A DNA stretch of 64,000 nucleotides from the IMG/VR virus record IMGVR_UViG_3300009008_000023, positions 1 through 64,000 of that record; one strand, given 5' to 3'. Positions 10,030-11,156 of this stretch are shown here, piece by piece (the stretch's first letter is position 1; each line of letters begins with the position of its first letter). The translations under genes were made by a program, and so were the position numbers. The DNA comes from a virus (taxonomy: Duplodnaviria; Heunggongvirae; Uroviricota; Caudoviricetes). Below the pieces are notes generated by a model, which searched no databases, was not told where the DNA came from, and saw only the letters and a program-made list of their open reading frames with translations.

Positions 10030-10044
10030 GTATTATGTCAACAA

Positions 10045-10083
10045 GTAAGTAAGTAAGTAAGTAAGTAAGTAAGTAAGTAAGTA
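10045..10083. repeat. (GTAA)9 tetranucleotide microsatellite
   Basis: Nine perfect GTAA units directly after the 9745..10029 stop. Confidence 0.95.
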
Positions 10084-10329
10084 CTATCTACTCAACACTC
10101 AATACTCACATGCTATGTCCACATTTCCACCACATTCACGGCATAACACACTCACAAAACTCATAAAAACACTCACTCGGCCCACAATTTAAAAAGTGGC
10201 CGGACAGACGGCCACAGTACAAGTCCGTAACTCACATCATCCCAAGTACTTATGTGGCCACCCATATCAGTGGCCGACACGCTAAAGCACAAAAACATAA
10301 ACAACTCAATCATAACACTTTACAAATGT

Positions 10330-10870
10330 TATATACGTCGTATACCACCCATACCACCCGCATACCACCCAAACTCGGTGGTATACACTTAACTCCAACT
10401 CTCTCTTAAACTTACAAAGCTTTTTAAAGAACTTACTATATATGTATATTAACATATTTTTATTATTATATATCTATTTTCTTTTAAAAGCAAATCTTAT
10501 AACACTAATACTTTCATATACTTACAGCATTTTCACACTTACGCCGTCCATGTATACCACCCAAAATCCCCGCGCCATAGGTCCACGTATGCGAGGCACT
10601 ACCTACCCTCTCTACACTGTGAGTATAGATACACCTGGCGCGGCGTTTTCGGGTGGTATAGCGTCACCGGCCGGAGCTAACCCTCTCTCTCACAACAAAA
10701 TATGGCGGCACCCATTTTGAAATGGCCGGGTGGTATGGTATCTATATATAACTTGTAACTTGTTGAAAACACTACACTTAGCTTGTATATACCACTAGCG
10801 TAAACCTCTCAACGCCAACGAATTAACATCATACCACCCAATCTCGGTGGTCGCGGCCTCTAAAGCACAC
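10330..10870. repeat. iteron-like ATACCACCC / GGGTGGTAT direct and inverted repeats in a 1.1 kb non-coding region
   Basis: ATACCACCC at about 10342, 10351, 10362, 10828; inverted CGGTGGTATAC about 10376 and GGGTGGTATGGTATC about 10728; GTGGCC(N)GGCCAC palindromes at 10196-10290. Confidence 0.6.
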
Positions 10871-11156
10871 TTTCATAAAATTGATAAATCATAACTCGTT
10901 ATAAACATTCAATTTACAAGACATTTCGACGCCAAAGTCATTTCCTCTATAAAACACTGAAATTACAGCACTTACGTGATTTTACCACTTTTATCCGGCC
11001 CCCAACCATAAAACCATGATCACTGCTCACAAAAACCACAAAATCTCAACAATCTTGTGACATTTCTGTGACATTTAGACCAAATTTTTGCTTATGTTGC
11101 ACTTTCACTCAAAAACCTGACATAAGCACAACACGAAAGGAACACATTCACTTTTC

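What the first reader, a model, noticed from the sequence alone, without database searches (positions are those of the whole stretch)
10030..11156. 1.1-kb non-coding region with a (GTAA)9 microsatellite and ATACCACCC/GGGTGGTAT iterons: candidate replication origin or packaging region
Directly after the last small early gene there is a perfect (GTAA)9 tract (10045-10083). Then comes about 1 kb with no ORF of 60 aa or more apart from one weak ORF. It contains four copies of ATACCACCC within 500 bp and inverted GGTGGTAT copies. There are GTGGCC...GGCCAC palindromes, CA-rich stretches and AT-rich blocks such as TTAACATATTTTTATTATTATATATCTATTTTCTTTTAAAAG. This iteron plus AT-rich architecture is typical of phage and plasmid origins. 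The tetranucleotide repeat is unusual for phage DNA and could vary in length by slippage.
Basis: seen in the sequence. Interest (0 to 1): 0.55.

Follow-up and report, generated by a model that had tools for sequence, protein, structure and literature searches.

The report
Conserved iteron array, probable phage origin
A 1.1-kb gene-free stretch of an undescribed large marine phage holds ten copies of one 9-base motif around the most easily melted DNA in the window, an arrangement kept base-for-base in spacing in a distant relative, so it is most likely a replication origin, and beside it sits a (GTAA)n repeat that changes length between otherwise identical genomes.

Summary
(GTAA)9 lies at 10045-10080. 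ATACCACCC occurs 7 times exactly (5 on +, 2 on -), all within 10342-10839 and nowhere else in 64 kb. No frame is open, even if TAG or TGA is read as sense. New evidence: (1) in seven near-identical metagenome contigs, the repeat number (5, 8 or 9) accounts for every length difference across up to about 20 kb; two contigs also carry 2 mismatches each. (2) A relative (L187; neighbouring protein 37% identical) has a homologous region at 57% identity. All ten CCACC/GGTGG sites keep their position and orientation to within 1 nt over 588 bp. (3) A more distant relative (L132) has a gene-free region at the same locus built the same way around a different 9-mer. (4) In all three phages the least stable 80-mer of the available sequence lies inside the repeat field. 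(5) A roughly 100-nt palindrome bracketed by inverted motif copies is kept with compensatory changes. (6) The phage's own promoter motif (GGTATAAGA) is absent from the region. Best reading: a DNA site for a sequence-specific protein, iterons plus an unwinding element, so probably a replication origin (about 0.5). This is not proven. No initiator was found and GC skew is uninformative. A regulatory region or long UTR, a structured RNA and a packaging site remain open.

The parts
10045..10083 (.). (GTAA)9 + GTA microsatellite. Copy number is polymorphic in the population: 5, 8, 8 with one G>T interruption, and 9.
   Evidence: (GTAA)>=7 occurs in only 54 stretches of 2.9 M IMG/VR contigs. L187 has a different repeat, (ATCACATA)n, at the homologous place.
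10084..10195 (+). C/A-rich, G-poor stretch (GC skew about -0.56), unstructured as RNA. It resembles a Rho-utilisation site and is poorly conserved in L187.
10196..10215 (-). Palindrome GTGGCCGGACAGACGGCCAC. On the - strand it is followed by TTTTT and reads as an intrinsic terminator. The GGCCGG palindrome is kept in L187 but the T-run is not.
10254..10275 (.). Hairpin GTGGCCACCCATATCAGTGGCC holding site 1 of the array. GGCCACCCATATCA (10256-10269) is identical in L187.
10342..10384 (.). Iteron cluster: ATACCACCC x3 in tandem (starts spaced 9 and 11 nt) plus one inverted copy, GGTGGTAT. About 87% identical to L187 over 45 nt.
10421..10500 (.). AT-rich block (88-90% A+T), candidate DNA-unwinding element. 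It is the least stable 80-mer in 64 kb. Its length, but not its sequence, is conserved in L187.
10517..10533 (+). TATACTTACAGCATTTT, a 17-mer identical in L187 and unique in the window. It contains a -10-like TATACT at the right edge of the AT block.
10553..10660 (.). Long imperfect palindrome (25-nt arms, 58-nt centre) whose outer arms are inverted iterons (10554-10562 and 10651-10659). The stem is conserved in L187 with compensatory changes, while the centre has diverged.
10705..10739 (.). Conserved blocks GCGGCACCCAT and GGTGGTATGGT, including the inverted iteron at 10728-10736.
10831..10851 (.). Iteron hairpin ATACCACCCAATCTCGGTGGT, conserved in L187 (794-814). With about 60 nt downstream it forms the second copy of an 85-nt diverged direct repeat (10258-10336 and 10834-10917).
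11056..11126 (+). Proximal upstream region of the 376-aa gene: tandem TGTGACATTTC x2 (11056-11076), a hairpin (11086-11131), and the conserved AAAAACnTGACATAAG (TGACATAAG at 11118-11126). The last is a possible variant of the phage promoter.
9745..10029 (+). Upstream flanking gene (94 aa). It is the last of three small CxxC...CxxC proteins (9201-9515, 9479-9748, 9745-10029).
11157..12287 (+). Downstream flanking gene (376 aa), fast-evolving and of unknown function. There are only two remote homologues among 1.84 billion representatives, and each of them sits downstream of a gene-free stretch.

Best explanation
The core of the region (about 10250-10870) is a cis-acting DNA element on which a sequence-specific protein assembles. 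The protein is phage-encoded or host-encoded and has not been identified. It would bind the roughly ten (A)TACCACCC sites.

Four sites are packed about one helical turn apart on the left of an 80-bp, 88-90% A+T block. Six more sites follow on the right in both orientations. Two of these bracket a 100-nt palindrome.

Occupancy of the array would bend or wrap the DNA and melt the AT block, which is the weakest duplex in the window, so that a helicase can be loaded. In other words it would act as an iteron-plus-DUE replication origin of the lambda ori / plasmid / oriC type. A conserved -10-like element at the edge of the AT block may help opening by transcription.

The (GTAA)n tract at the left border is a slippage-prone microsatellite that varies in the population. 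No effect of its length on any gene can be read from the sequence.

Shown here: the sites, their statistical excess, the conservation of their spacing and orientation, the extreme instability of the AT block in three phages, conservation of the palindrome, and repeat-length polymorphism. Inferred: protein binding, DNA melting, and replication starting here.
For: 1. Seven exact copies of the motif lie within 498 bp and none elsewhere in 64 kb. It is the only over-represented k-mer in the region apart from the microsatellite.

2. The tandem triple is spaced 9 and 11 nt, about one helical turn.

3. The homologous region of L187 is 57% identical overall. All ten sites sit at a constant offset (10038 or 10037) with the same orientation over 588 bp. 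Eight of the 11 perfectly conserved blocks of 8 nt or more in the gene-free region contain the motif. Conserved sites separated by diverged sequence of fixed length are a recognised feature of bacterial oriC (own knowledge).

4. L132 (spike protein 35% identical) has a 1.9-kb gene-free region at the syntenic place. It holds ten copies of a different 9-mer, TGTAGTTTC, in both orientations. These include a tandem triple spaced 10 and 11 nt, and a palindrome bracketed by inverted copies. This is what a site co-evolving with its binding protein would look like.

5. The least stable 80-mer of the available sequence lies inside the repeat field in all three phages: window 10421-10500 of 64 kb, L187 407-486 of 12.4 kb, and L132 1526-1605 of 8.6 kb.

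6. The phage-wide promoter motif GGTATAAGA has 18 exact copies in the window, on the same strand as the genes, and is shared with L132 and L187. It is absent from the region in all three, so the region is not an ordinary promoter cluster of that class.

7. No frame is open under any stop-codon reassignment, and Rfam gives no match.

8. A published example of a gene-free region with several repeat types, where iterons bound by a RepA_N initiator are needed for replication, is the PLE satellite of Vibrio cholerae (PMC7145576).
Against: No replication initiator, helicase loader or other replisome gene was recognised next to the region or among the window ORFs scanned. The structure model of the adjacent 376-aa protein was unusable, with pLDDT 35.6.

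There are no DnaA boxes.

The cumulative GC-skew minimum in the window lies at about 13-14 kb, roughly 3 kb to the right. Skew here tracks transcription direction, and only 64 kb of a genome of at least 158 kb is visible.

The region lies inside a + strand transcription unit (promoter at 8276, next promoter at 13004) with no + strand terminator. It is therefore probably transcribed, and RNA-level roles cannot be excluded.

Compensatory changes in the long palindrome fit an RNA stem as well as they fit a DNA cruciform.

There are no read data, so neither coverage peaks nor termini could be examined.
Confidence: 0.5

Rival explanations
1. Transcriptional control region and long leader. The array would be a set of operators for a phage regulator. 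The regulator would control a promoter at the edge of the AT block (TATACT, 10517-10522) and/or read-through from the upstream early operon into the 376-aa gene. The C-rich, G-poor untranslated RNA would act as a Rho-loading zone and the hairpins as processing or antitermination signals. The region would then separate immediate-early from delayed-early expression.
For: The region sits between promoter 8276 and promoter 13004 with no + strand intrinsic terminator. The + strand is 12% G and 28% C, and 10084-10200 is unstructured, which is rut-like. The same composition is kept in L187. A conserved 17-mer with a -10-like hexamer lies directly after the AT block. TGACATAAG is conserved about 30 nt upstream of the gene. 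The long, roughly 25-bp stem would suit RNase III, as in the T7 early intercistronic sites (own knowledge).
Against: Ten sites kept at fixed spacing over about 590 bp, on both sides of the AT block, is far more than known operator sets need. The sigma-70 scan finds only one weak candidate promoter in the region. The phage's own promoter motif is absent. The tandem triple has no pairing partners, so hairpin-only models leave it unexplained.
Confidence: 0.2
2. One or more structured non-coding RNAs are encoded here. Either the + strand RNA contains the CCACC/GGUGG hairpins and the long stem, or a roughly 110-nt - strand sRNA ends at the terminator 10215-10196.
For: 10300-10780 folds far better than shuffles on both strands (z = -6.8 and -6.6). 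The long stem keeps 18 of 18 pairs in L187, with 2 compensatory changes plus lineage-specific complementary extensions. There is a strong - strand terminator. L132 carries promoter-to-terminator units without ORFs next to its repeat field.
Against: Rfam gives no match. The fold excess is equal on both strands and as DNA, as expected of plain inverted repeats. The - strand terminator is not conserved in L187. The long-range closing helix is not supported by covariation. There is no phage promoter in either orientation. Direct tandem repeats and the AT block are not RNA-like features. Only two sequences were available, so covariation is weak evidence.
Confidence: 0.12
3. Packaging recognition site or genome terminus (pac, cos or a terminal-repeat boundary), with the repeats as binding sites for the small terminase subunit.
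For: Repeated motifs flanking a central segment resemble P1 pac and lambda cosB (own knowledge). Contig ends cluster here. In the window phage: 10029, 10054 (x2), 10206 (x2, two samples) and 10555. All four L187-type contigs also end here, and the contigs carrying P0004 and P0008 appear to.
Against: The ends at the microsatellites are assembler breaks: the Logan contigs begin with exactly 30 nt (k-1) of repeat. Several contigs and the window itself read straight through. No terminase gene is adjacent. The AT-rich unwinding block is not a feature of pac or cos sites.
Confidence: 0.08
4. Remnant of a selfish element or recombination site, such as a MITE-like element with roughly 40-nt terminal inverted repeats (10314-10360 and 10727-10764) or an attP-like intasome site.
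For: An imperfect inverted repeat encloses a 450-bp AT-rich core. A tandem triple of arm-type sites recalls lambda P'1-P'3 (own knowledge).
Against: The element sits at the same locus, with homologous flanks, in two diverged phages and is under strong purifying selection on its sites. There is no target-site duplication. No integrase or transposase was found among the neighbours scanned. Motif copies also lie outside the putative ends (10258, 10831).
Confidence: 0.04

Closest known systems
Iteron-plus-AT-rich theta origins (phage lambda ori; plasmids P1 oriR, R6K gamma, pSC101, RK2 oriV)
   Same: There are clustered short repeats at about one-helical-turn spacing next to the most easily melted DNA. 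The region is gene-free and carries additional inverted repeats. The motif differs between related replicons (L132 compared with the window).
   Different: The sites are only 9 bp long, against 17-22 bp in these origins. They are spread over about 590 bp on both sides of the AT block and in both orientations. No initiator gene is recognisable beside them, whereas lambda ori lies inside gene O and plasmid iterons sit next to rep. No DnaA or IHF sites were found. Function is untested.
Bacterial oriC (9-bp DnaA boxes, DUE, fixed spacing)
   Same: The sites are 9 bp long, occur in both orientations and number about ten. Conserved sites are separated by diverged sequence of conserved length. An AT-rich unwinding element is present.
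   Different: The motif ATACCACCC is not the TTATCCACA box; only the CCAC core is shared. Here the DUE lies inside the array rather than at one end. The binding protein is unknown.
Non-coding region of the Vibrio cholerae PLE satellite, with RepA_N iterons (PMC7145576)
   Same: It is a large gene-free region with several repeat families and semi-palindromic iterons. In PLE it was shown experimentally to be required for replication during phage infection.
   Different: PLE has an adjacent RepA_N initiator gene and a demonstrated function. Here neither is available. There is no sequence similarity.
Simple-sequence contingency loci of Haemophilus and Neisseria (tetranucleotide repeats)
   Same: It is a perfect tetranucleotide tract of about 9 units. 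Its copy number varies among otherwise near-identical genomes.
   Different: It lies neither in a reading frame nor between recognisable promoter elements. It starts 15 nt after a stop codon, so no on/off switch can be inferred. It is in a lytic-type phage, not a bacterium.
RNase III processing hairpins of the T7 early polycistronic mRNA
   Same: It is a long, imperfect stem of about 25 bp in an untranslated spacer of an early operon. The stem is conserved and the loop is variable.
   Different: The stem is built from the same motif that also occurs as unpaired tandem copies. No evidence of cleavage exists.

Membership tests
Iteron-type replication origin | Several copies of a short repeat clustered in a gene-free region, in excess over chance | tested here: met
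   7 exact copies plus 3 near copies lie in 10258-10851, with 0 exact copies elsewhere in 64 kb.
Iteron-type replication origin | Adjacent AT-rich DNA-unwinding element | tested here: met
   10421-10500 is the least stable 80-mer of the window. The same holds inside the repeat field in L187 and L132.
Iteron-type replication origin | A cognate initiator protein that binds the repeats, usually encoded nearby | tested here: inconclusive
   No Pfam or PHROG initiator family was found among the neighbours. The 376-aa neighbour has unknown function and its model had pLDDT 35.6. Binding cannot be tested here.
Iteron-type replication origin | Replication actually starts there (copy-number peak, bubble arcs, autonomous replication) | not testable with these tools
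   No reads or experiments are available. GC skew is dominated by transcription direction, with the window minimum at about 13-14 kb.
oriC-like architecture | Binding sites conserved in position and orientation while spacers diverge but keep their length | tested here: met
   The offset is 10038 or 10037 for all ten sites over 588 bp, at 57% overall identity.
oriC-like architecture | DnaA boxes (TTWTNCACA) | tested here: not met
   There are no matches in 10030-11156 and 3 in the whole window, against 8.3 expected.
pac/cos packaging site | Next to or within terminase genes; genome termini map there | tested here: inconclusive
   No terminase was found among the ORFs scanned around the region. 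Termini cannot be mapped without reads. Contig ends cluster here but are partly assembler artefacts.
SSR contingency (phase-variation) locus | Repeat number varies at high rate among close relatives | tested here: met
   5, 8 and 9 copies occur in contigs that are otherwise 99.9-100% identical over 1.4-20 kb.
SSR contingency (phase-variation) locus | The repeat lies in an ORF or in a promoter spacer, so that its length switches expression | tested here: not met
   It starts 15 nt after the stop codon. No ORF crosses it on either strand. No promoter-like pair of hexamers spans it.
Known structured RNA family (Rfam) | Match to a covariance model at the gathering score | tested here: not met
   Only tRNAs reach the threshold in the window. 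The best sub-threshold hits in the region are chance-level.
Rho-independent-terminated sRNA on the - strand | Terminator and transcript conserved in relatives | tested here: not met
   The hairpin plus T-run at 10215-10190 is strong in the window, but L187 lacks the T-run.
Mobile element (MITE) or attP | Variable presence or location, target duplication, or adjacent recombinase | tested here: not met
   The locus and flanks are the same in the window and L187. No recombinase was found among the neighbours.

The most novel reading that the evidence does not exclude
The array is not a conventional origin. It would be a new kind of rigid nucleoprotein or cruciform scaffold specific to this lineage of phages that encode their own RNA polymerase. 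Examples would be hairpin-extruded recognition sites for a phage polymerase or primase (as in N4 early promoters), or a genome-positioning 'centromere'. The neighbouring hypervariable microsatellite, (GTAA)n here and (ATCACATA)n in the relative, would tune its activity. That would make it a contingency locus in a virulent phage.
Probability: 0.1. Interest if true: 0.75.

Novelty: new member of a known kind. Interest (0 to 1): 0.45.

Why it matters
The phage belongs to an essentially undescribed marine lineage. It has no DNA or flanking-protein match in GenBank phages or IMG/VR, and its nearest isolates are 29% identical in the RNA polymerase fusion. For such uncultured large phages nothing is known about how replication starts.

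This region gives a concrete, testable candidate with defined binding sites, a defined unwinding block and a defined palindrome. There is also a natural specificity swap in a relative (ATACCACCC versus TGTAGTTTC) that could be used to find the binding protein by co-variation.

The microsatellite is a rare documented case of repeat-length polymorphism within a natural phage population. It could serve as a strain marker. If it affects the neighbouring element, it would be a new example of contingency behaviour in a virus.

Tried and rejected
1. Hidden coding capacity. All six frames carry many TAA stops, so the suppressor tRNA(CUA) in the window does not rescue an ORF.

2. Known RNA families. 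Nothing was found.

3. Close relatives in GenBank phages and IMG/VR. None were found.

4. Two metagenome-contig scans with the spike protein found nothing. The DNA of the 62-64% relatives (P0004, P0005, P0008) could not be fetched, so only gene maps are available. Those maps show a 0.7-1.2 kb gene-free gap at the same place.

5. Collection scans with the tandem motif. These were swamped by glycine-codon repeats (GGTGGT...) and gave no relatives. Two unrelated viral contigs (L318, L314) have TACCACCC arrays in gene-free DNA, which is probably coincidence given that the search was for exactly that pattern.

6. DnaA boxes. None were found.

7. The iteron as a variant of the phage promoter GGTATAAGA. 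Only GGTAT is shared, and the motif is not followed by the AAGAnnnATG context.

8. A - strand sRNA ending at 10190. It is plausible in the window, but the terminator is not conserved.

9. A long-range closing helix (10349-10360 with 10727-10738). L187 shows no compensating changes.

10. Structure prediction of the 376-aa neighbour. Confidence was too low to search with.

11. GC skew as an origin test. It is uninformative, because skew follows gene direction and only part of the genome is visible.

12. Literature searches for phage microsatellite variation and jumbo-phage iterons. They returned nothing specific beyond the PLE paper.
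Full report
CONTEXT

The window comes from a large phage with no close relative in GenBank phages or IMG/VR. It carries:
- 22 tRNA genes;
- a 2020-aa fusion resembling bacterial RNA polymerase beta and beta' (55236-61298, - strand), whose nearest isolates are Vibrio phages D181, D148 and D69 at 29% identity;
- a sigma factor, NAD-salvage genes, RtcB, an RNA ligase, ThyX and a dCMP deaminase.

Structural genes run leftward from 8184. 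From 8322 the genes run rightward. The finding lies between the third of three small CxxC proteins (ending at 10029) and a 376-aa gene that starts at 11157.

THE OBSERVATION

- (GTAA)9 occupies 10045-10080, followed by GTA.
- ATACCACCC occurs exactly seven times: five on the + strand (10342, 10351, 10362, 10554, 10831) and two on the - strand (10651, 10728). A one-mismatch inverted copy lies at 10376 and a partial one at 10845.
- There is no other exact copy in 64 kb. With one mismatch allowed, no shuffle reaches the observed count. It is the only enriched k-mer in the region apart from the microsatellite.
- The GTGGCC/GGCCAC palindromes are real.
- The AT block 10421-10500 is the most A+T-rich and thermodynamically weakest 60-, 80- and 100-mer of the entire window, about 3.8 sd above the mean.
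- The region is the largest gene-free gap in the window. All six frames are closed by TAA codons, so the amber-suppressor tRNA in the window cannot open a frame.
- Rfam finds nothing.

THE MICROSATELLITE VARIES

Looking up the two flanking proteins by exact sequence returned twelve loci from nine or so metagenome samples. They are 99.7-100% identical to the window over 0.7-20 kb. The gaps in these alignments are all at the (GTAA) tract, and two contigs additionally carry 2 mismatches each. Copy numbers are 9 in the window, L003 and L004; 8 in L001, L006 and L007; 8 with one G>T interruption in L005; and 5 in L002.

(GTAA)>=7 is rare, occurring in 54 stretches among 2.9 million viral contigs. 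I could not attach a consequence to its length. It starts 15 nt after a stop codon, no ORF on either strand crosses it, and no promoter-like hexamer pair spans it.

RELATIVES

The 690-aa spike-like protein has only four homologues.

One of them, at 35% identity, is on L132. At the syntenic place L132 has a 1.9-kb gene-free region. That region contains ten copies of a different 9-mer, TGTAGTTTC (six exact), all within 780 bp and in both orientations. They include a tandem triple spaced 10 and 11 nt. The region also has AT blocks, one of which is the least stable 80-mer of that contig. A roughly 110-nt palindrome there is bracketed by inverted copies of the 9-mer.

The gene map of a 62%-identical relative, for which no DNA was available, shows a 0.7-1.2 kb gap at the same place.

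A full HMMER scan with the 376-aa protein found two remote homologues. One of them (37% identity) lies on four Logan contigs, L187-L190. The 1198 nt upstream of it on L187 are gene-free and align with the window region at 57% identity.

PHYLOGENETIC FOOTPRINT

In that alignment, 8 of the 11 perfectly conserved blocks of 8 nt or more within the gene-free region contain the CCACCC/GGTGG motif. All ten CCACC/GGTGG sites of the window core have a counterpart in L187 in the same orientation: 10258, 10345, 10354, 10365, 10377(-), 10557, 10652(-), 10729(-), 10834 and 10846(-). The offset is constant at 10038 or 10037 over 588 bp. Spacer sequence has drifted to 30-60% identity while spacer length has been held to within 1 nt. 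This includes the AT block, whose sequence is not conserved, although it is again the least stable 80-mer of the 12.4-kb contig.

The flanks behave differently. 10030-10250 and 10870-11100 are much less conserved and contain large indels.

Two conserved blocks lack the motif. One is TATACTTACAGCATTTT (10517-10533), at the right edge of the AT block, which is unique in the window. The other is TGACATAAG (11118-11126), about 30 nt upstream of the 376-aa gene.

PALINDROMES

The region 10300-10780 folds much better than shuffles as + RNA, as - RNA and as DNA (z = -6.8, -6.6 and -5.9). This is what nested inverted repeats produce whichever strand is folded.

The long palindrome 10553-10660 is conserved in L187. 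Of 18 main-stem pairs, 16 are unchanged, 2 changed on both sides (A-T to T-A and C-G to T-A) and none is broken. Beyond these pairs each phage extends the stem with its own complementary sequence. The 48-58-nt centre has diverged.

This shows selection for pairing, or homogenisation of the two arms. It does not say whether the paired molecule is RNA, single-stranded DNA or a cruciform.

The - strand terminator at 10215-10196 is strong in the window but loses its T-run in L187. That weakens the idea of a - strand sRNA.

TRANSCRIPTION

While comparing L132 with the window I found a phage-wide promoter-like motif, tttt(G/T)GGTATAAGAannATG. It has 18 exact copies in the window, all on the same strand as the local genes and often just after terminators. 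It also occurs in L132 and L187.

The gene-free region contains no copy of it in any of the three phages. The region lies between the copies at 8276 and 13004 with no + strand intrinsic terminator, so it is probably transcribed rightward.

Its + strand is 12% G and 28% C, with the Gs concentrated in the inverted-repeat arms. 10084-10200 is unstructured as RNA. L187 has the same bias. This composition is that of a Rho-loading zone, which keeps a regulatory reading alive.

INTERPRETATION

The features point to a DNA-level nucleoprotein assembly site with an unwinding element:
- a tandem triple at helical-turn spacing;
- sites in both orientations on both sides of the weakest duplex in the sequence;
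- rigid spacing with drifting spacers;
- replacement of the motif, but not of the architecture, in a more distant relative.

This is the design of iteron-plus-DUE origins and of oriC (own knowledge). The PLE non-coding region is a demonstrated phage-associated example (PMC7145576). I put a replication origin at about 0.5.

The weak points are these. No initiator or replisome gene was recognisable nearby. There are no DnaA boxes. GC skew is uninformative: the cumulative minimum in the window is at about 13-14 kb, but skew follows gene direction and only part of the genome is visible.

The rivals are:
- an operator and leader region controlling the 376-aa operon (0.2);
- a structured RNA (0.12);
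- a packaging site or terminus (0.08);
- a selfish-element remnant (0.04).

Contig ends cluster in this region in every phage of the group. Those at the microsatellites are de Bruijn breaks, because the contigs start with exactly k-1 = 30 nt of repeat. Those at 10206 (two samples), 10555 and L187 position 334 fall at palindromes and remain unexplained.

VERDICT

The element is a conserved, cis-acting, iteron-type element and most likely an origin, but its function has not been shown. Nothing specific favours the packaging alternative. It is a new member of a known kind in an undescribed phage lineage, and the polymorphic tetranucleotide repeat is a real curiosity.

Noticed in passing
window 8230, 8276, 13004, 16972, 18728, 20048, 21724, 29711, 30323, 31257, 32364, 42365, 51159, 54397, 61315 (+); 4574, 5323 (-): A phage-wide promoter-like motif, tttt(G/T)GGTATAAGAannATG. 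It has 18 exact copies against about 0.5 expected, always on the same strand as the local genes and often directly after a terminator hairpin, with no -35 element. It is shared with L132 and L187, and is probably read by the phage's own RNA polymerase and sigma factor.
   Followed up: partly
window 55236-61298 (-); 19101-20012 (+): A single 2020-aa ORF matches both the beta and beta' subunits of bacterial-type RNA polymerase. The nearest isolates are Vibrio phages D181, D148 and D69 at 29% identity. The phage also encodes a sigma-70-family factor.
   Followed up: partly
window 33764-54301: An array of 22 tRNA genes is interspersed with small ORFs. It includes a tRNA with anticodon CUA (34629-34706, called Pyl by ARAGORN), which is an amber suppressor. 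TAG recoding does not open the region studied.
   Followed up: partly
window 47620-48651; 28650-29724: An adenylosuccinate-synthetase-like gene matches the PHROG annotated as 2-aminoadenine (PurZ-type) synthesis. dCMP deaminase and ThyX are also present. This hints at modified DNA bases.
   Followed up: no
window 8230-8284: Two copies of the promoter motif lie 46 nt apart, separated by a terminator-like hairpin (8251-8270 plus a T-run). This sits at the divergent junction with the structural genes. A near-consensus sigma-70 promoter (TTGACC-17-TATAAT) faces the other way at 8219-8191.
   Followed up: no
window 13013-13290: About 280 nt of G+C-rich, ORF-free sequence lie directly downstream of the promoter copy at 13004. 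This could be a leader or a non-coding RNA.
   Followed up: no
L132 2140-2865 (- strand): Two promoter-to-terminator units without ORFs (promoters at 2851 and 2490; terminators near 2600, 2500 and 2140) are candidate 250-350-nt non-coding RNAs. They lie next to the repeat field of the relative and have no Rfam match.
   Followed up: partly
window 10206 and 10555; L187 334 and 774: Metagenome contigs from independent samples end at the same bases, at or near palindrome centres. 10206 is the centre of GTGGCCGGACAGACGGCCAC and L187 334 is the centre of ATACCACCCAAAATGGGTGGTAT. Tandem-repeat k-mer breaks do not explain these ends. They could reflect structural variants, loss of coverage, or real DNA ends.
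   Followed up: partly
window about 673 (L001 828-929): The 116-kb ENA scaffold carries about 100 nt at this point that are absent from the window, in otherwise identical sequence.
   Followed up: no
window 8300-13100: The whole block of rightward genes from 8.3 to 13.1 kb has C>G on the coding strand. This is the opposite of the remaining rightward genes (13.5-54 kb, G>C), so GC skew changes sign about 5 kb after the strand switch.
   Followed up: partly
L318 5820-5990; L314 2425-2510: Two unrelated IMG/VR contigs have arrays of TACCACCC-type repeats in gene-free DNA. In L318 they form a perfect long palindrome of four copies on each arm between divergent genes.
   Followed up: no
window 9201-10029: Three consecutive small proteins (104, 89 and 94 aa) each carry two CxxC pairs, like paralogous zinc ribbons, directly upstream of the region. 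They are candidates for nucleic-acid binding, untested.
   Followed up: no
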